This document shows positions 7,412 to 55,766 of a DNA stretch of 64,000 bases, piece by piece. The stretch is from assembly GCA_964016885.1 (NCBI GenBank), contig OZ024761.1, positions 14,074,001 through 14,138,000 on the forward strand, written 5' to 3'. The stretch is from Eledone cirrhosa (taxonomy: Eukaryota). The notes beneath the pieces were generated by a model. The model did not search any database and was not told the DNA's origin. It was given only the letters and a program-made list of their open reading frames with translations. The position numbers were made by a program, and so were the translations under genes. Within the stretch, counting starts at the first letter, position 1. Each line of letters opens with the position of its first letter.

Positions 7412-7455
<44 letters not shown>

Positions 7456-7458
<3 letters not shown>

Positions 7459-7694
7459 ACGACAAAAAACACAGTCCACGCTGTAATGTGGCCATGTAGG
7501 CAACACGGTAAAAACCTCCCAGTCCACACTGTAAACGTGGTTGGTGTTAGGAAGGGCATCCAGCCGTAGAAAACCCACCAGACAGTCCTATGCGAGCAAG
7601 ACAACCACTCTTGCCTCAAGTGGGAAAATTCCCGTCCAAACCCATGCAAGCGTGAAAGATGGACGTTAAACGATGATGATGATGATGATGATGA
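7456..7694 (+). mobile_element. RTE-related non-autonomous retroposon/SINE tail ending in (GAT)n; unedited reference for 50521-50696
   Basis: ggttggtgttaggaagggcatccagccgtagaaa...cccatgcaagcgtgaaagatggacgttaaacgatgatgat. Further copies at ~845, 18580, 18795, 22315, 27113, 28067 and 50521. Confidence 0.8.
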
Positions 7695-18792: not shown

Positions 18793-19300
18793 TCATCATC
18801 ATCGTTTAACGTCTAATCTTCCACGCTAGTATGGGTTAGACGGGAGTTGTCCCACTGTAGGCAAGGTTGGTCGGGTGACAGTATCTCGCTCATATAGGAC
18901 TATCTGGCAGGTTTTCTACGGCTGGATGCCCGTCCCAACACCAACCACGTTTACAGTGTGGACTGGGAACTTTTTACCGTGTTACCTACACGGCCACATT
19001 ACAGCGTGGACTGTGTGTGTTTTTTTTGTCGTGACACCTACACGACCTCATTTATTTAGGACTGGATGTTGTGGTTCCGACATAACTTTATAGAGAAAAG
19101 GGGTGGTGTTGGCAGGAGTGGGAGCATGGAGTGGAGTAGTGGGTTGGGGTGTATGTTTGGTTTGGAGGGACCTACTGACTGTAGGTTAATTTTGCACGGA
19201 GGGAAGGCGGGTATGATATAACATAATTTCTGTCACCACCACCACCACCACCACCACCACCTTCTCTCTCTCTTCTCTTTCATGTCTGTGATGATCTCAG

Positions 19301-45296: not shown

Positions 45297-45496
45297 NNNN
45301 NNNNNNNNNNNNNNNNNNNNNNNNNNNNNNNNNNNNNNNNNNNNNNNNNNNNNNNNNNNNNNNNNNNNNNNNNNNNNNNNNNNNNNNNNNNNNNNNNNNN
45401 NNNNNNNNNNNNNNNNNNNNNNNNNNNNNNNNNNNNNNNNNNNNNNNNNNNNNNNNNNNNNNNNNNNNNNNNNNNNNNNNNNNNNNNNNNNNNNNN
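45297..45496. other. Assembly gap (200 N)
   Basis: Run of n. Confidence 1.
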
Positions 45497-45528
45497 TATA
45501 TATATATATATATATGTATATGTATATG

Positions 45529-45564
<36 letters not shown>

Positions 45565-45575
45565 TGTATATGTAT

Positions 45576-45743
<168 letters not shown>

Positions 45744-45772
45744 GTATATATATATATGTATATATATATATG

Positions 45773-45855
<83 letters not shown>

Positions 45856-45996
45856 GTATATATGTATATATATATATGTATATATATATATGTATATATA
45901 TATATATGTATATATATATATGTATATATATATATGTATATATATATATATGTATATATATATATGTATATATATATATATGTATATATATATATG

Positions 45997-46041
<45 letters not shown>

Positions 46042-46523
46042 GTATATATATATATGTATGTATATATATGTATATATATATATGTATATATATGTATATA
46101 TATGTATGTATATATATATATGTATATATATATATGTATATATATGTATATATATATATGTATATATATATGTATATATATATATGTATATATATATATG
46201 TATATATATATATGTATATATATATATGTATATATATATATGTATATATATATATGTATATATATATATGTATATATATATGTATATATATATATGTATA
46301 TATATATATGTATATATATATATGTATATATATATATGTATATGTATATATGTATATGTATATGTATATATGTATATGTATATATGTATATGTATATATG
46401 TATATATATATATGTATATATATATATGTATATATGTATATATGTATATGTATATATGTATATATATAATGTATATATATATATATGTATATATATATAT
46501 GTATATATGTATATATATATATG

Positions 46524-46766
<243 letters not shown>

Positions 46767-46768
46767 GT

Positions 46769-47750
46769 ACACTAAGGTAGCACAGGCAATCAAAAACCCG
46801 GCTGACGCTGCCCTCTTACAGCAGGATCTGGATGCCATATACAGATGGGCGGAAGAAAACAACATGCAGTTTAATGCTGGCAAATTCCAAGCCCTACAAT
46901 ACAAACCTGCAAACACAAACACAAATATAGCGGAACACAGCTACACAGGACCAGGAGGGACCGATATCCCCGTGTCAAAATCGATACGAGACCTGGGCAT
47001 AGACATGAGCGATGATGCATCTTTTTCTTCACACATCATGAAGGTGGCGACAGCATGTAGACGATTCGCTGGCTGGATCTTGAGGACTTTCCTTACAAGA
47101 GATCGAGACACCATGTTGACACTGTGGAGGACTTTTGTCCTAAGCCGCCTGGACTACTGCTCCCAGCTGTGGTCACCCCATAGTGTCAAACTAACCACAG
47201 AGCTTGAGGCAATCCAGCGAAGCTACACCAAGAGGATTGCCAAGATGAGGGAGACAAGCTACTGGGAGAGGCTGAAGGAACTGAACCTCTACTCCTTGGA
47301 GCGAAGACGGGAGAGATACGCAGTGATCTACATGTGGAAAATCCTGGAGGGACTAGCACCAAACTTTGGCATTGGGAGCTGGACCAACCGTCGAACAGGA
47401 CGTCACTGTGTGGTGCCAAAGGTCCCGTCTTCCACATCTAGAATAAGGAGCAGGTATTGCAATAGCCTGGGATTCAAGGGCCCTCAACTCTTCAACAGGC
47501 TGCCGAGGCATCTGCGAGACTTGCATGACGTGGAGGTGGATGTCTTTAAGAAACATCTCGACACCTTGTTATCCAGGATCCCGGATGAGCCCACAGCAAG
47601 ACACGAGGGAAACCTAAGGGCAGCAGCAACAAACTCCCTCCTACACCAGTGGCCAACCGATACAGGCTGGAGATAAAATGTGTAGCAACAAGGGCGGTGC
47701 CCCAGCATGGCCTCAGCCGGATGGCTGAAACAGGTAAAAGAGTAAAAGAG
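46769..47750 (+). mobile_element. 5'-truncated CR1/L2-group LINE; RT thumb and C-terminus open 46771-47676, plus 3' UTR
   Basis: [78 protein letters not shown]; ~300 codons with no stop. Confidence 0.92.
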
Positions 47751-47804
47751 TATATGTATATATATGTATGTATATATATATATGTATATATATGTATGTA
47801 TATG

Positions 47805-47885
<81 letters not shown>

Positions 47886-47946
47886 GTATGTATATATATA
47901 TATATATGTATGTATATATATGTATATATATGTATGTATATATATG

Positions 47947-48005
<59 letters not shown>

Positions 48006-48013
48006 GTATGTAT

Positions 48014-48054
<41 letters not shown>

Positions 48055-48067
48055 TATATGTATGTAT

Positions 48068-48108
<41 letters not shown>

Positions 48109-48118
48109 TATATGTATG

Positions 48119-48151
<33 letters not shown>

Positions 48152-48185
48152 ATATATATATATATGTATGTATATATATATATAT

Positions 48186-48640
48186 CAAAGCAGCTCTTAA
48201 GAGTCAATGGCTATCCAAAATCACCGGGAGAGATGACCCCTTAGCCTTTGTCAAGGCAGAATTCTAGGAGAAGGAAAACTCTGATATAACACCCGCAACC
48301 CTGATGGTATCCAATGATGTTGACTTGTTCTTCTTTTTGGTAAATATCATCTTGGTTAAGAGAGTGGGACTGGCTTTGTGCAGTGCCTTTGCTCACTATA
48401 AAAGCTTCACGGCACAGGCATTGCTTTATATCTGGAGATCTCTCTCTCTGCACTTGTCGTCACATGGTACCATGGGCCCAGCACTATGTGTCAGTAATTG
48501 TCACAAGTGTAGTGTTTGTACCAGAGTTTTCAAGTCGCTGGCTGGACTAAAAAGTCACACTCGTTCAGCGCATCGGTAGGGGTTCTCCTACATGGATATA
48601 AAGTAGTGGCCGTACTCGAAAACGAGTTGGCAGCCACCAT
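48186..48640 (+). mobile_element. Bipartite RTE-like non-autonomous element, 5'-truncated
   Basis: Same family as 8085-8706. Confidence 0.85.
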
Positions 48641-49051
48641 GTATGTATATGTATATGTATATATATATGTATATGTGTGTATGTATATGTATATATATAT
48701 GTATATATATATTTGTATATATATATATGTGTATATATATGTGTGCGTATATATATGTATATATATGTATACATATGTATATATATGTATATGTGTGTAT
48801 ATGTGTATATATATGTATGTGTATGTATATATGTGTGTGTGTGTATATATGTGTATAAATATATATGTATATATATGTATATGTATATATATATATATGT
48901 ATGTGTATATATATGTATATATATATATATATGTGTATGTATATGTGTATATATATATATATATGTATATATATATGTATGTATATATATGTGTATATAT
49001 ATATATGTATGTATATATATATGTATATATATATATATATGTATATATATG

Positions 49052-49090
<39 letters not shown>

Positions 49091-49230
49091 GTATATATAT
49101 ATATGTGTATATATATATGTATGTATATATATGTGTATGTGTATGTGTATATATGTATGTATGTATGTGTATATGTATATATATGTGTATATGTATATGT
49201 ATATATATATGTATGTATATATATATATAT

Positions 49231-49432
49231 ATATAGATGAGATTCTGCAGGACTGGGGCTGTTTCATTCATTGGAAATCATCGGAAATCATCAGGGATTC
49301 CTGATGATTTCTGGTGGGTGGAACAGTTCTGGTCCTGTGGAGTCTCATCTATATTAAAACTTTTATACTCTGCTATGTATTGAGTACCTTACTTACTGTG
49401 GTTACCTCCGATTCAACCCGGAATAACTTACC
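49231..49432 (+). mobile_element. Family C hammerhead fold-back element with A-to-G hypermutated arms
   Basis: Homologous to 21541-21600, 17585-17680 and 29461-29620. Core reads CTGATGA...GGAA cag..ctg TG. Confidence 0.85.
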
Positions 49433-49471
<39 letters not shown>

Positions 49472-49482
49472 GTATGTATATG

Positions 49483-49516
<34 letters not shown>

Positions 49517-49882
49517 TGTATATATATATGTGTATATATATGTATGTATATGTATATATGTATATATATATATGTATAAATTGAAACAAAATGAAAACGA
49601 AATTTCATTTCTCACTCTTAGTATGGCACTTACTTAAATGTAAGTATGCATGTATACGTACATACATATATGTATACAGACGTACAGTAGCATGCACATA
49701 TATATATATATATATATACATATATACATACATATGCATACAGGTACACATACATATATGCACGTATCAGTTTAGCGGCGCTAACGTCGCTTTGTTCGTT
49801 TGTAAACAAACTGAACAGCCTGAATTTATGCCATACGGTGTTAAGGCAACCACGTCACCTTTTTGTTCAACACTGACACAGG

Positions 49883-49927
49883 AACGATGTACTAGTTTCA
49901 AGCTTGTTAGCTATCATCAGCACCGTT
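49883..49927 (-). ncRNA. Minimal type I hammerhead ribozyme (family D)
   Basis: Minus strand: aacggtg CTGATGA t agct aaca agct t GAAA ctag TA catcgtt. Confidence 0.85.
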
Positions 49928-50391
49928 TACCCATCTGCCAGATAGTTGAACGTTCGAAAGTATATACTTTCCTTATGAAAATTAACGGCTGAGCAGCCTA
50001 ATTTGCATATTGAGTGAGTTAAATCGGTCAGGCATACCGAAAACGATAAATTGAAACAAAATGAAAACGAAATTTCATTTCTCACTCTTAGTATGGCACT
50101 TACTTAAATGTAAGTATGCATGTATACGTACATACATATATGTATACAGACGTACAGTAGCATGCACATATATATATATATATATACATATATACATACA
50201 TATGCATACAGGTACACATACATATATGCACATATCAGTTTAGCGGCGCTAACGTCGCTTTGTTCGTTTGTAAACAAACTGAACAGCCTGAATTTATGCC
50301 ATACGGTGTTAAGGCAACCACGTCACCTTTTTGTTCAACACTGACACAGGAACGATGTACTAGTTTCAAGCTTGTTAGCTATCATATAGTA

Positions 50392-50436
50392 AACGGTGCT
50401 GATGATAGCTAACAAGCTTGAAACTAGTACATCGTT
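50392..50436 (+). ncRNA. Minimal type I hammerhead ribozyme (family D); predicted GUA cleavage after 50429
   Basis: aacggtg CTGATGA tagctaacaagctt GAAA ctag TA catcgtt; palindromic stem III ACTAGT. Confidence 0.85.
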
Positions 50437-50520
50437 CCTGTGTCAGTGTTGAACAAAAAGGTGACGTGGTTGCCTTAACACCGTATGGCATAAATTCAGG
50501 CTGTTCAGTTTGTTTACAAA

Positions 50521-50700
50521 CGGTAGGGGCCTCCTAGCCCCACACTGTGGGTGTGGTTGGTGTTGGGAGGGGCATCCAGCTGTGGGAGGCCTGCCGGGGG
50601 GTCCTGTGCGAGCGGGACAGTCACTCTTGCCTCGGGTGGGACTGCCCCCGTCCGGGCCCATGCGGGCGTGGAGCGCGGACGTTGAACGTTGATGATGATG
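50521..50700 (+). mobile_element. RTE-related retroposon tail, A-to-G hypermutated copy
   Basis: Colinear with 7506-7680 but with about 30 A replaced by G. Confidence 0.9.
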
Positions 50701-50876
50701 TATATATATATGTGTGTGTATGTGTGTGTGTATGTGTGTATATGTGTGTATGTATGTATATGTATATATGTATGTGTATGTGTATGTGTGTGTATATGTA
50801 TATGTATGTATATATGTATATATATGTATGTATATGTATATATGTATATATATATGTATGTATATATGTATATATG

Positions 50877-50917
<41 letters not shown>

Positions 50918-50974
50918 GTATGTATATGTATGTATATATATATATATATATATGTATGTATATGTATATATATG

Positions 50975-51008
<34 letters not shown>

Positions 51009-51163
51009 TATGTATGTGTATATATACGTCTGTGTATATATATATATATATATGTATGTGTATATATATGTCTGTATGTATATATATATATATATGTATG
51101 TGTATGTATATGTCTGTATGTATATGTATATGTATGTGTATATATGTGTCTGTATATATATAT

Positions 51164-51716
51164 ATGGTCGGGTCGTTGGCGACTAAACTGGCAACCCCAC
51201 CAAGGTTTCTTGGTGAGGAGGGTGACTTTGGACATCCTGCAGGACTAAAAACAAAACCTGTCAAAGGGCAAAGGAGCTCTTAAGAGTCAATGGCCATCCA
51301 AAATCACCGGGAGAGATGACCCCTTAGCCTTTGTCAAGGCAGAATTCTAGGAGAAGGAAAACTCTGATATAACACCTGCAACCCTGATGGTATCCAATGA
51401 TGTTGACTTGTTCTTCTTTTTGGTAAATATCATCTTGGTTAAGAGAGTGGGACTGGCTTTGTGCAGTGCCTTTGCTCACTATAAAAGCTTCACGGCACAG
51501 GCATTGCTTTATATCTGGAGATCTCTGCACTTGTCGTCACATGGTACCATGGGCCCAGCACTATGTGTCAATAATTGTCACAGGTGTAGTGTTTGTACCA
51601 GAGTTTTCAGGTGGCTGGCTGGACTAAAAAGTCACACTCGTTCAGCGCATCGGTGGGGGTTCTCCTACATGGATATAAAGTAGTGGCCGTACTCGAAAAC
51701 GAGTTGGCAGCCACCA
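51164..51716 (+). mobile_element. Bipartite RTE-like non-autonomous element
   Basis: Same family as 8085-8706. Confidence 0.88.
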
Positions 51717-51932
51717 TATATATATATATGTATGTATATATATATATGTATATATGTATATATATATGTATATATGTATGTATATATATGTATATATATA
51801 TATGTATATATATATATGTATATATATATATGTATATATATATATATGTATATATGTATATATATATGTATATATGTATGTATATATATGTATATATATA
51901 TATGTATATATATATATGTATATATATATATG

Positions 51933-51979
<47 letters not shown>

Positions 51980-53134
51980 GTATATATATATATGTATATA
52001 TATGTATATATATATGTATATATATATATGTATATATATATATGTATATATATATATGTATATATATATGTATATATATATGTATATATATATATGTATA
52101 TATATATATGTATATATATATATGTATATATGTATATATATATATGTATATATATATATGTATATATATATATGTGTATATGTATATATGTATATGTATA
52201 TATGTATATGTATATATGTATATATATATATGTATATATATATATGTATATATATATATGTATATATATATATGTATATGTATATATGTATATGTATATA
52301 TGTATGTGTATATATGTATATATATATATGTATATGTATATATGTATATGTATATATGTATATGTATATATGTGTATATGTATATATGTATATATATATG
52401 TATATATATATGTATATATATATATATGTATATATGTATATGTATATATGTATATATGTATATGTATATATGTATATATGTATATGTATATATGTATATA
52501 TATATATGTATATATGTATATGTATATATGTATATGTATATATATATATGTATATATATATATGTATATATGTATATGTATATATGTATATGTATATGTA
52601 TATATGTATATGTATATATGTATATGTATATGTATATATGTATATATGTATATGTGTATATGTATATATGTATATGTATATATGTATATATGTATATATA
52701 TATATGTATATATATATATGTATATATATATATGTATATGTATATATGTATATGTATATATATATATGTATATGTATATATGTATATATATATATGTATA
52801 TATATATATGTATATGTATATATATATATGTATATATATATATGTATATATATATATGTATATATGTATATGTATATATGTATATATGTATATGTATATA
52901 TGTATATATGTATATATGTATATGTATATATATATATATGTATATGTATATATGTATATATATATATGTATATATATATATATGTATATATGTATATGTA
53001 TATATGTATATATATATATGTATATATATATATGTATATGTATATATGTATATGTATATATATATGTATATATATATATGTTTATATATATATGTATATA
53101 TATATGTATATATATATATGTATATATATATATG

Positions 53135-53181
<47 letters not shown>

Positions 53182-53554
53182 GTATATATATATGTATGTA
53201 TATATATATGTATATATATATGTATATATATATATATGTATATATATATGTATATATATATATATGTATATATATATGTATATATATATATGTATATATA
53301 TATATGTATATATATATGTATATATATATATGTATATATATATGTATATATATATATGTATATATATATATGTATATATATATATGTATATATATATATG
53401 TATATATGTATATATATATATATGTATATATATATATGTATATATATATATGTATATATATATATGTATATATATATATGTATATATATATGTATATATA
53501 TATGTATATATATATGTATATATATATGTATATATATATGTATATATATATATG

Positions 53555-53585
<31 letters not shown>

Positions 53586-53699
53586 GTATATATGTATATG
53601 TATATATATATATGTATATATATATATGTATATATATATATGTATATATATATATGTATATATATATATGTATATATATATATGTATATATATATATGT

Positions 53700-53737
<38 letters not shown>

Positions 53738-53854
53738 GTATGTATATATGTATATATATATGTATATATATATGTATATATATGTGTATATATATATATG
53801 TATATATATATATGTATATATATATATGTATATATATATATGTATATATATATG

Positions 53855-53899
<45 letters not shown>

Positions 53900-55766
53900 G
53901 TATATATATATATGTATATATGTATATATATATATGTATATATATATATGTATATATATATGTATATATATATGTATATATATGTGTATGTATATGTGTA
54001 TGTATATGTGTATGTATATATATATGTATATGTGTATGTATATATATATGTGTATGTATATATGTATGTATATATATATGTATGTATATATGTATGTATA
54101 TATGTATGTATATATGTATGTATGTAAGTATGTATATATGTATGTATATATGTATGTATATATGTATGTATATATGTATGTATATATGTATATATATGTA
54201 TATATGTGTATATATGTATATATGTATATATATGTATATATATGTGTATATGTGTATATATATGTATATATATATATATATGTGTATATATGTGTATATA
54301 TGTATATATATGTGTATATATGTGTATATATATGTGTATATATGTATATATATGTGTCTATATATATATGTATAATGAAAAATTGAACAGGGACAGAACA
54401 GAGAGGCAGTACGATAAATGTTTATTAAATTCACGCTCAGGAGAGTGGGGTGTATATATATATGTATATATGTATATATATGTGTATATATATGTATATA
54501 TATGTGTATATATATGTATATATGTGTATATATATGTATATATATATATGTGTATATATATATGTGTATATATATGTATATATATATATATGTATATATA
54601 TATATGTGTATATATATGTATATATATATATGTGTATATATATGTATATATATATGTGTATATATATGTCTATATGTCTATATGTCTATATATCTATATG
54701 TATCTATATGTATCTATATATATATGTGTGTATATATGTATATATATGTGTATATATGTGTATATATATGTGTATATATATGTGTATATATGTGTATATA
54801 TGTATATATATGTATATATATGTGTATATATGTGTATATATGTGTATATATGTGTATATATGTGTATATATGTATATATATGTATATATATGTGTATATA
54901 TGTGTATATATGTGTATATATGTGTATATATGTGTATATATGTGTATATATGTGTATATATGTGTATATATGTGTATATATGTGTATATATGTGTATATA
55001 TGTGTATATATGTATATATATGTATATATATGTGTATATATGTGTATATATGTATATATATGTGTATATATGTGTATATATGTGTATATATGTGTATATA
55101 TGTATATATATATGTATATATATATGTATATATATATGTATATATATGTGTATATATGTGTATATATATGTATATATATGTATATATATGTATATATATA
55201 TGTATATATATGTATATATATATATATCTGTATGTATATATATATATATATCTGTATGTATATATGTATATATATCTATCTCTATATATATTCATATATA
55301 TAGATATATACACATACATATACACGCACATATATACGTATATATATATATATTCATACGTACACCTGTACACATACACACACACACACACATACATATA
55401 ATAGAATGAATGTGAAGATTACAATTTTCAAATAATAATAATTACTATAATTTATATAAGTGGGTAAAATGTTTTATTTGAATAAAATCAAGAACATGAA
55501 TAAAAAGAATCCCAAATAAATTGTCTTCGGTTCGGTTTAAACCAGTTTTTCTTTGAAACCAGTTTGATATTTCTATTTTTTTGCTTTATTTGTATTTTCA
55601 TTTCATTAAACTTAATGATATTAATAATTATTTCTTCAACAGTAACAATTTCTCCTTGTTTTATGCCAGAAAAGAACTGATAACAGTTTGATGGCTTTTA
55701 CTAAGACTAGCAAATTAGCCTAATAAAAAGTAAAATATGTATGTATGTATATATATATATATATAC

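What the first reader, a model, noticed from the sequence alone, without database searches (positions are those of the whole stretch)
50521..50696. Genome-fixed A-to-G hypermutated retroposon: apparent ADAR hyper-edited RNA written back into DNA
Seen: a by-eye alignment to the sister copy at 7506-7680 gives about 33 A->G changes, about 15 other differences and no G->A over ~175 nt. Examples: taaaaac->taggggc, gtaaac->gtgggt, gtagaaaac->gtgggaggc, gcaaga->gcggga, tcaagt->tcgggt, ccaaac->ccgggc. A few of these Gs also occur in other copies, leaving roughly 30. Copies at 845-1010 and 18795-19050 support A as ancestral at most sites. Changes cluster in A-runs and after T, and most surviving As follow G or C. 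Established: ADAR deaminates A to I in dsRNA with 5'-neighbour preference U>A>C>G, reverse transcriptase reads I as G, and coleoid cephalopods edit RNA extensively. Inference: a hyper-edited transcript was the retrotransposition template in the germ line, so editing here acted as a heritable mutagen.
Basis: partly seen in the sequence, partly recalled or inferred. Interest (0 to 1): 0.92.

Follow-up and report, generated by a model that had tools for sequence, protein, structure and literature searches.

The report
RNA-edited retroposon copies written into genome
A jumping-gene insert here, and at least a dozen elsewhere in this genome, carries dense one-strand A-to-G changes confined to double-stranded RNA regions, the mark of the RNA-editing enzyme ADAR acting on the RNA before it was copied back into DNA, so RNA edits can become genome sequence.

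Summary
Confirmed and extended. 50521-50690 is the 3' UTR end of a young RTE-like LINE. Against its closest unedited sibling it differs by 32 A>G and 1 other change. It lies in a ~3.5-kb composite insert (48186-51716) found at two more loci; the three share the 3' end, differ in 5' truncation and have overlapping but non-identical A>G sets. Edits sit in duplex-forming parts only: 14 of 39 As in a hairpin stem, 0 of 22 beside it, 1 of 145 in the 3' retroposon. Twelve edited LINE loci show the ADAR context (5' T 0.57, A 0.60, C 0.36, G 0.16). Genome-wide triple-change probes: A>G 5, C>T 0, T>C 1 (an antisense arm of a fold-back insert), among 17,740 copies. A second retroposon family is also hit. 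Best reading: ADAR-hyper-edited read-through RNA was reverse-transcribed and inserted (0.88). Not shown: raw DNA reads for this copy, population fixation, the LINE fragment's duplex partner. Rare (about 0.03-0.07% of copies, lower bound). Precedent exists for retroviral proviruses; ten literature searches found none for non-LTR copies. The scan noted a similar L1 case in another genome (e1-8045548).

The parts
50521..50690 (+). Hyper-edited 3' UTR end of a young RTE-like LINE (ORF2 with RT and PHD finger lies upstream in longer copies); 32 of 51 As read G
50691..50699 (+). Short (GAT)n tail of the LINE fragment
   Evidence: same tail in family copies
50699..51166 (+). (TA)n tract with TA>TG changes; in the alignable last 140 nt each of the three daughters has 4-5 own A>G and no other change
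51167..51716 (+). 3' retroposon of the composite (E550 copy B; ~607-nt high-copy family ending in a C2H2-finger remnant, RTE-derived by inference). Common 3' end of all daughters; essentially unedited (1 shared A>G of 145 As); 100% identical to the C403 copy
48186..48639 (+). 5'-truncated E550 copy A, 5' end of the composite here; longer at C403, shorter at C13
48640..49235 (+). (TA)n/(TG) tract between E550 A and hairpin 1, with landmarks shared by the daughters
49236..49432 (+). Hairpin-1 element: 117-nt near-perfect stem-loop (14 of 39 As edited, both arms, same strand) followed by 80 unpaired nt (0 of 22 As edited)
49433..49577 (+). Remnant of the (TA)n tract that in siblings leads to hairpin 2
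49576..50522 (.). Unedited patch of a 470-bp tandem repeat family (49576-50045, 50046-50385, inverted arm 50389-50522, perfect 121-bp fold-back 50265-50385/50402-50522) that replaces hairpin 2 and the first ~30 nt of the LINE fragment; 3-nt microhomology at the LINE junction
7455..7672 (+).

Best explanation
A source locus holding [E550 A]-(TA)n-[hairpin 1]-(TA)n-[hairpin 2]-[LINE 3' UTR]-(TA)n-[E550 B] was transcribed as one read-through RNA (inferred). ADAR deaminated A to I wherever that RNA was double-stranded: both arms of the hairpins, the self-complementary (UA)n tracts and the LINE 3' UTR fragment, whose partner is an inverted or antisense copy of this 17,000-copy family lying outside the copied part (pattern shown; enzyme and partner inferred). 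An RTE-type reverse transcriptase primed at the 3' end of E550 B and inserted the cDNA into (TA)n targets by target-primed reverse transcription, reading I as G (common 3' end and variable 5' end shown; TPRT inferred). This happened at least three times from separately edited molecules (window, C13, C403), very recently, and the same route hit at least nine other LINE loci and a second family. Presence in the assembly consensus implies a germ-line or early-embryo event (inferred).
For: Only A>G, always on the retroposon sense strand: 585 A>G against 15 G>A, 12 T>C, 33 C>T in the edited spans of 12 loci (loci chosen for A>G, so only the purity and context, not the excess, are informative). 5' neighbour T 147/256, A 267/443, C 134/376, G 37/232 (chi-square p 2e-32), 3' G highest at 154/284, matching the ADAR motif of G depleted upstream and enriched downstream (PMC4365171, passages). 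Duplex confinement: window 14/39 in stem vs 0/22 outside (p 0.001), C403 10/39 vs 0/22 (p 0.01), hairpin-2 edits at C403 all in its stem, E550 B 1/145. Three daughters with no flank homology beyond the composite, differing in the core only by A/G (13, 18, 21 sites), with non-nested sets in hairpin 1 and the tail tract. Genome-wide probes: triple A>G 5 of 17,740 motif-bearing copies, triple C>T 0, triple T>C 1; that one is an antisense arm (37 T>C, ADAR context when read on its own strand) joined head-to-head to a sense copy with a 17-site A>G patch, so both arms are A>G on one strand. Second family: E550 copies with 20 and 10 clustered A>G. The genome encodes A_deamin domains at four places, one frame with the ADAR catalytic motifs. 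A perfect 121-bp DNA fold-back beside the finding is unedited and 100% identical to other genomic copies, against a hairpin-induced sequencing error.
Against: No raw genomic read of this copy was seen: none of the listed contigs in four runs spans or matches it. No target-site duplication can be resolved because inserts lie in (TA)n. The unedited source locus was not found (the C3 sibling lacks E550 A and has private changes). No inverted LINE partner lies inside the composite. In the fold-back locus the sense arm is edited over only part of the stretch that could pair. In human cells ADAR1 restricted L1 without detectable editing of L1 RNA (PMC5224506, passages). In the core, the C403 edits are wholly contained in C13's and 15 of 16 in the window's, which alone could mean descent; they are equally contained in unrelated edited copies (14-15 of 16).
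Confidence: 0.88

Rival explanations
1. Sequencing, polishing or assembly artefact turns A into G in these low-complexity, hairpin-rich regions.
For: All copies sit among long (TA)n tracts; systematic clustered miscalls have entered reference genomes before (G-to-A type, PMC2873906, passages); this copy is not confirmed in raw reads.
Against: Changes follow retroposon sense at 12 of 12 loci regardless of contig strand, stop at stem ends, spare an adjacent perfect DNA hairpin and 548 nt of neighbouring repeat, and show the ADAR context. In run X1 three short contigs carry G at most edited sites, one with all seven letters that set the C13 copy apart within 50590-50640; depth is 2.5-7 and the run type is not on record, so this is weak.
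Confidence: 0.03
2. A DNA-level adenine deaminase (ADAR on a DNA:RNA hybrid or R-loop, or an unknown enzyme on single-stranded DNA hairpins) made the changes during or after insertion.
For: ADAR can act on DNA in hybrids (cited in PMC12925331, passages). Strand-specific clusters would also result.
Against: Deamination of the cDNA strand in the TPRT hybrid would read T>C on the sense strand, not A>G; a hybrid covers paired and unpaired template alike, yet edits are stem-confined; the DNA fold-back next door is untouched.
Confidence: 0.04
3. Polymerase infidelity: dATP shortage in second-strand synthesis (G opposite T) or an adenine-specific error-prone RT, as in diversity-generating retroelements (recalled).
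For: Would give sense-strand A>G in retroposed DNA and favour A-runs (5' A 0.60).
Against: No reason to spare 145 As of E550 B and the 22 unpaired As while hitting both arms of a stem; 5' T is as favoured as 5' A and 5' G is avoided; A>C and A>T are 12 and 6 against 585 A>G.
Confidence: 0.03
4. An old G-rich subfamily, or ordinary decay.
For: Edited copies share many G sites (26-28 of the window's 32 with three other heavily edited copies).
Against: Copies on two different subfamily backbones share the sites, each has its own set, non-A/G divergence among the three daughters is nil in the core; 30 position-ordered copies show 34 A>G, 95 T>C, 85 G>A, 122 C>T in 18,421 nt and no cluster.
Confidence: 0.01

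Closest known systems
ADAR hyper-editing of repeat-derived dsRNA (Porath et al. 2014, PMC4365171; squid repeats, PMC9068888)
   Same: Dense A>G clusters, G depleted 5' and enriched 3', confined to long duplexes, in repeats.
   Different: There the changes are RNA-versus-DNA mismatches; here they are in the genome assembly itself, in retroposed copies.
ADAR-type A-to-G hypermutated retroviral proviruses (RAV and ALV as reviewed in PMC12925331; three BLV proviruses in PMC8025556)
   Same: Edited RNA is reverse-transcribed and integrated; edits cluster in inverted-repeat regions; a minor fraction of insertions.
   Different: Exogenous retroviruses in infected somatic cells or culture; here non-LTR retroposons and transduced flanking repeats in a host genome assembly, with several independent daughters of one source.
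APOBEC DNA editing of LTR retroelements in vertebrate genomes (Knisbacher and Levanon, PMC4866542)
   Same: Strand-biased deaminase clusters preserved in genomic retroelement copies and read against a family consensus.
   Different: G>A from C deamination of cDNA, LTR elements, vertebrates; that screen filtered for G>A and used invertebrates as a negative control. Here A>G, RNA-level, non-LTR, structure-dependent.
LINE 3' transduction / bipartite non-autonomous RTE elements (PMC5786205)
   Same: Read-through RNA copied from a retroposon 3' end with variable 5' truncation; E550 looks like a 5'+3' RTE derivative.
   Different: The cargo arrives hyper-edited; E550's parent LINE was not identified here.

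Membership tests
ADAR hyper-editing signature | Only A>G on the transcribed strand | tested here: met
   32 A>G, 1 other vs sibling; 585 vs 15 G>A and 12 T>C over 12 selected loci; probes 5:0:1
ADAR hyper-editing signature | 5' neighbour U/A > C > G, 3' G favoured | tested here: met
   reference motif PMC4365171
ADAR hyper-editing signature | Confined to long double-stranded RNA | tested here: met
   hairpin 1: 14/39 vs 0/22 and 10/39 vs 0/22; hairpin 2 stem only; E550 B 1/145; both arms of fold-back locus
ADAR hyper-editing signature | A duplex partner for the LINE fragment at 50521-50690 | tested here: inconclusive
   none inside the composite; inverted copies 3.9 and 8.7 kb upstream of the C3 sibling only; own fold weak (-63.5 kcal/mol over 205 nt)
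ADAR hyper-editing signature | Host encodes ADAR | tested here: met
   12 A_deamin matches at four places; one frame read, with catalytic motifs; dsRNA-binding domains not checked
ADAR hyper-editing signature | Inosine in the RNA / dependence on ADAR | not testable with these tools
   no RNA holder listed
Non-LTR (RTE-like) LINE 3' end | Upstream ORF with non-LTR RT, microsatellite tail, 5' truncation | tested here: met
   388-aa frame with RVT_1 and PHD; (GAT)n tails and variable 5' ends. Clade name RTE is by recalled resemblance; no tree built
TPRT insertion / 3' transduction | Shared 3' end, variable 5' end at unrelated loci | tested here: met
TPRT insertion / 3' transduction | Target-site duplication | tested here: inconclusive
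   both ends lie in (TA)n tracts
TPRT insertion / 3' transduction | Unedited source locus in the genome | tested here: inconclusive
   only the C3 sibling, lacking E550 A, was found among the 40 candidates scored
APOBEC DNA editing of retroelements | G>A on the sense strand | tested here: not met
   0 G>A
Germ-line fixed insertion | Present in DNA reads and in other individuals | tested here: inconclusive
   this copy not among listed contigs; C13-like pattern seen at low depth in a run of unrecorded type

The most novel reading that the evidence does not exclude
In this genome ADAR and RTE reverse transcriptases form a standing route from edited RNA to germ-line DNA that reaches beyond retroposon bodies: transduced passengers are rewritten too, and the long one-stranded TA/TG tracts that flank these elements are in part fossil (UA)n editing products; if host mRNAs are retroposed the same way, recoding edits could be hard-wired into retrocopies.
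Probability: 0.25. Interest if true: 0.92.

Novelty: new variant of a known kind. Interest (0 to 1): 0.78.

Why it matters
It is direct sequence evidence that ADAR edits retroposon RNA in cells that contribute to the genome and that the edits survive reverse transcription. A 2016 review said a role for ADAR editing in Alu subfamily evolution and mutational suppression had not been determined (PMC4982230), and a cell-culture study saw no editing of L1 RNA (PMC5224506). Each edited insert is a single-molecule fossil of germ-line ADAR activity, with site preferences and RNA structure readable from DNA alone. It makes the question 'can RNA editing write to the genome?' testable by a screen of existing assemblies, and warns that some genomic A/G 'variants' in repeats are edited retrocopies. 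The load seen is small (at least 12 loci against 17,740 motif-bearing copies), so a large evolutionary effect is not shown.

Tried and rejected
Rfam scan of the window: 0 matches. Plasmid search with the 470-bp patch, to test for vector or contaminant DNA: no match; it is a host repeat with 237 genome matches among 40 scored candidates. Sequencing-run search: no RNA holder listed; most holders share only the 470-bp repeat arm, single 151-nt contigs in X3 and X14 say nothing about the finding. The first self-BLAST was swamped by microsatellites and the first multiple alignment had two copies on the wrong strand; both were redone. Two-round editing (C403 as parent of the others) rejected: hairpin-1 and tail edits are not nested. 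C3 as the direct source: not supported, it lacks E550 A and has private changes. Cis partners near other edited copies: an older inverted copy lies 60 nt from the C1 copy but is itself unedited and of another subfamily; partners near the C24 copy do not cover its edited span. TA-tract strand test: downstream of E550 13 G-type, 2 C-type, 1 mixed of 26 copies, but upstream also 12:0:3; downstream of the LINE 16:10:8 of 97 copies (the rest had no qualifying tract): suggestive only, since primer-target matching or RT slippage could give the same. Left out of the pooled count: L193 (19 A>G among 64 changes) and L060 (6 A>G), the second segment of the C2 locus; L007 was dropped from the ungapped matrix and used later as L057. 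In E550, 3 of 5 probe hits (L197-L199) were not clearly hyper-edited. Two SINE papers listed for 'ADAR' held it only in references; PMC5974252 and PMC8208052 passages did not describe edited genomic copies. No earlier notes on this genome; a second word look-up found nothing.

Full report
Observation. The stretch 50521-50696 aligned to the copy at 7500-7690 shows 33 A>G, no G>A, 14 other substitutions and one gap in 176 columns.

What the element is. The window lies at C22:14,074,001-14,138,000 of a 2.996-Gb assembly. Longer copies extend 5' into a 388-aa open frame with RVT_1 and PHD domains; nearest Atlas clusters are animal RT-PHD proteins. Copies end in (GAT)n, are 5'-truncated and sit in (TA)n. 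So the finding is the last 170 nt of the 3' UTR of a non-LTR LINE; the clade name RTE is by recalled resemblance, no tree was built. A 27-nt motif with R at each A matches 17,740 places; the first 100 listed are all unedited, and 30 position-ordered copies show 34 A>G, 95 T>C, 85 G>A and 122 C>T in 18,421 nt, with no cluster. Against the majority of 32 near copies the finding has 32 of 51 As changed to G and 3 other differences.

It is part of a larger insert. The finding, a copy on C13, one on C403 and an unedited sibling on C3 share flanking sequence. In the window the unit runs: truncated E550 copy A (48186-48639), TA tract, hairpin-1 element (49236-49432), TA tract, a patch of a 470-bp repeat (49576-50522) where the siblings have hairpin 2, the LINE fragment, TA tract, E550 copy B (51167-51716). 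All four end at the 3' end of E550 B; window, C13 and C403 begin at different points in E550 A; outside the unit they share only scattered high-copy repeats. E550 is a ~607-nt high-copy element with a C2H2-finger remnant near its 3' end, like the bipartite non-autonomous RTE elements described in PMC5786205 (passages); this assignment is inference. A common 3' end with variable 5' ends at unrelated loci is the mark of target-primed reverse transcription of a read-through RNA. In the LINE core the three daughters differ from each other only by A/G (13, 18 and 21 sites) and from C3 by 32, 37 and 16 A/G plus one shared A/C; E550 B is 100% identical between window and C403. The events are very recent.

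The edits follow RNA structure. Hairpin 1 folds into a 117-nt near-perfect stem-loop; the window copy has 14 of 39 stem As edited, on both arms, and 0 of 22 in the unpaired remainder; C403 has 10 of 39 and 0 of 22, with a different set (Fisher p 0.001 and 0.01). C403's hairpin-2 edits all lie in the stem. E550 B has one A>G, shared by all three, among 145 As. In the alignable 140 nt of the TA tract each daughter has 4-5 own A>G and nothing else. The LINE fragment itself has no inverted partner inside the unit and folds weakly alone; its partner must lie outside the copied part or be an antisense transcript. This step is not shown.

The phenomenon is genome-wide and rare. Similarity and motif searches gave 12 distinct hyper-edited LINE loci; within their edited spans there are 585 A>G, 33 C>T, 15 G>A and 12 T>C. 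These loci were picked for A>G, three share a source, and L193 and L060 were left out as weak, so the informative part is the context: edited fraction by 5' base T 147/256, A 267/443, C 134/376, G 37/232 (p 2e-32), by 3' base G 154/284, A 218/446, T 75/182, C 138/395. That is the ADAR motif, G depleted upstream and enriched downstream (PMC4365171, passages). Probes forcing three changes found 5 copies for A>G, 0 for C>T in the same motif and 1 for T>C in a neighbouring motif. The T>C case is an antisense arm with 37 T>C joined head-to-head to a sense copy with a 17-site A>G patch; read on the one strand both arms are A>G, and the arm has the ADAR context (15/19, 7/9, 11/24, 4/18). In E550, 2 of 5 probe hits carry clusters of 20 and 10 A>G against a symmetric background in 26 copies. 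Frequency: 5 of 17,740 by one probe, at least 12 loci by all; a lower bound. The genome has A_deamin matches at four places, one read with ADAR catalytic motifs.

Artefact check. A perfect 121-bp DNA fold-back directly beside the finding is 100% identical to many other genomic copies, so hairpins as such are not miscalled; it was either inserted later or captured by a template switch from an unedited molecule. Contigs of public run X1 include three short ones that carry G at most edited sites; one shows all seven letters that distinguish the C13 copy within 50590-50640, though its total of differences is 11 against 12 expected, and another resembles the C1 copy with 8 against 13. Depth is 2.5-7, the run type is not on record, and this copy itself and its junction are not among the listed pieces. 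Raw-read confirmation is therefore still open, and 'fixed' is untested.

Mechanism, shown versus inferred. Shown: strand- and structure-specific A>G with ADAR context, in several independent inserts with TPRT-like ends. Inferred: read-through transcription (possibly from E550 A), deamination by ADAR, priming at E550 B by an RTE-type enzyme, germ-line timing. Confidence 0.88; rivals are a DNA-level deaminase (0.04), artefact (0.03), polymerase error (0.03), old subfamily (0.01).

Comparison with what is known. Hyper-editing of repeat RNA is well known, also in squid, where untranslated-region edits overlap repeats across tissues (PMC9068888, passages); active RTE LINEs are reported in octopus (PMC9115989, passages). 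ADAR-type A>G clusters copied into DNA are known for retroviruses: RAV and ALV (review PMC12925331, passages) and three BLV proviruses (PMC8025556, passages). Germ-line deaminase scars in retroelements are known for APOBEC G>A in vertebrate LTR elements; that screen selected G>A and does not mention ADAR in its main text (PMC4866542, passages). For non-LTR elements a 2016 review called the role of ADAR mutation undetermined (PMC4982230, passages) and ADAR1 restricted L1 without detected editing (PMC5224506, passages). Ten full-text searches (listings and abstract starts seen) showed no report of ADAR-edited non-LTR copies in a genome assembly, but the library lacks most subscription papers, three relevant ones were not held, and no supplements were read.

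Verdict. Real; most likely ADAR-edited RNA retroposed into the genome; a new variant of a known kind (retroviral precedent, new for non-LTR elements and their transduced cargo as far as searched). Interest 0.78.

Noticed in passing
   Followed up: yes
L132:4947-6479 (G000:C6, 31.46 Mb): Head-to-head fold-back of two LINE subfamily copies; antisense arm edited throughout, sense arm only over part of the pairable stretch. The asymmetry is unexplained (template switch between two RNAs?).
   Followed up: partly
window 49576-50522: 470-bp tandem repeat family, 97-99% identical at many loci, in tandem and head-to-head arrays; rolling-circle-like by impression only. Here it replaces hairpin 2.
   Followed up: partly
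window 49433-50520 and C13 copy (L053): Two of three daughters have lost hairpin 2 (C13 also hairpin 1), as if reverse transcription jumped strong or hyper-edited hairpins.
   Followed up: no
window 45497-54700 and tracts next to E550 copies: Very long aperiodic TA/TG tracts with G almost only on one strand (over 1 kb after E550 B); E550 flanks are G-type 13:2 downstream and 12:0 upstream. Could be edited (UA)n tails or RT slippage.
   Followed up: partly
L194:1339-2101 (G000:C3, 27.99 Mb): Edited copy whose 67 A>G run through the ORF2 coding part, so editing is not limited to the UTR.
   Followed up: no
L056:1307-1938 (G000:C2, 377.09 Mb): Edited copy with an internal tandem duplication; both segments edited, with different patterns.
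   Followed up: no
runs X3, X14 on window 50389-50522: Single 151-nt contigs of the 470-bp repeat, identical to the window, in unrelated runs including a wastewater metagenome; looks like cross-run contamination.
   Followed up: no
window 45297-45496: 200-base N gap 2.7 kb upstream of the composite's 5' end.
   Followed up: no
L202:1246-2067 (G000:C6, 13.64 Mb): ADAR-type deaminase domain encoded in only two long exons, unlike the many-exon copies on C1 and C25.
   Followed up: no
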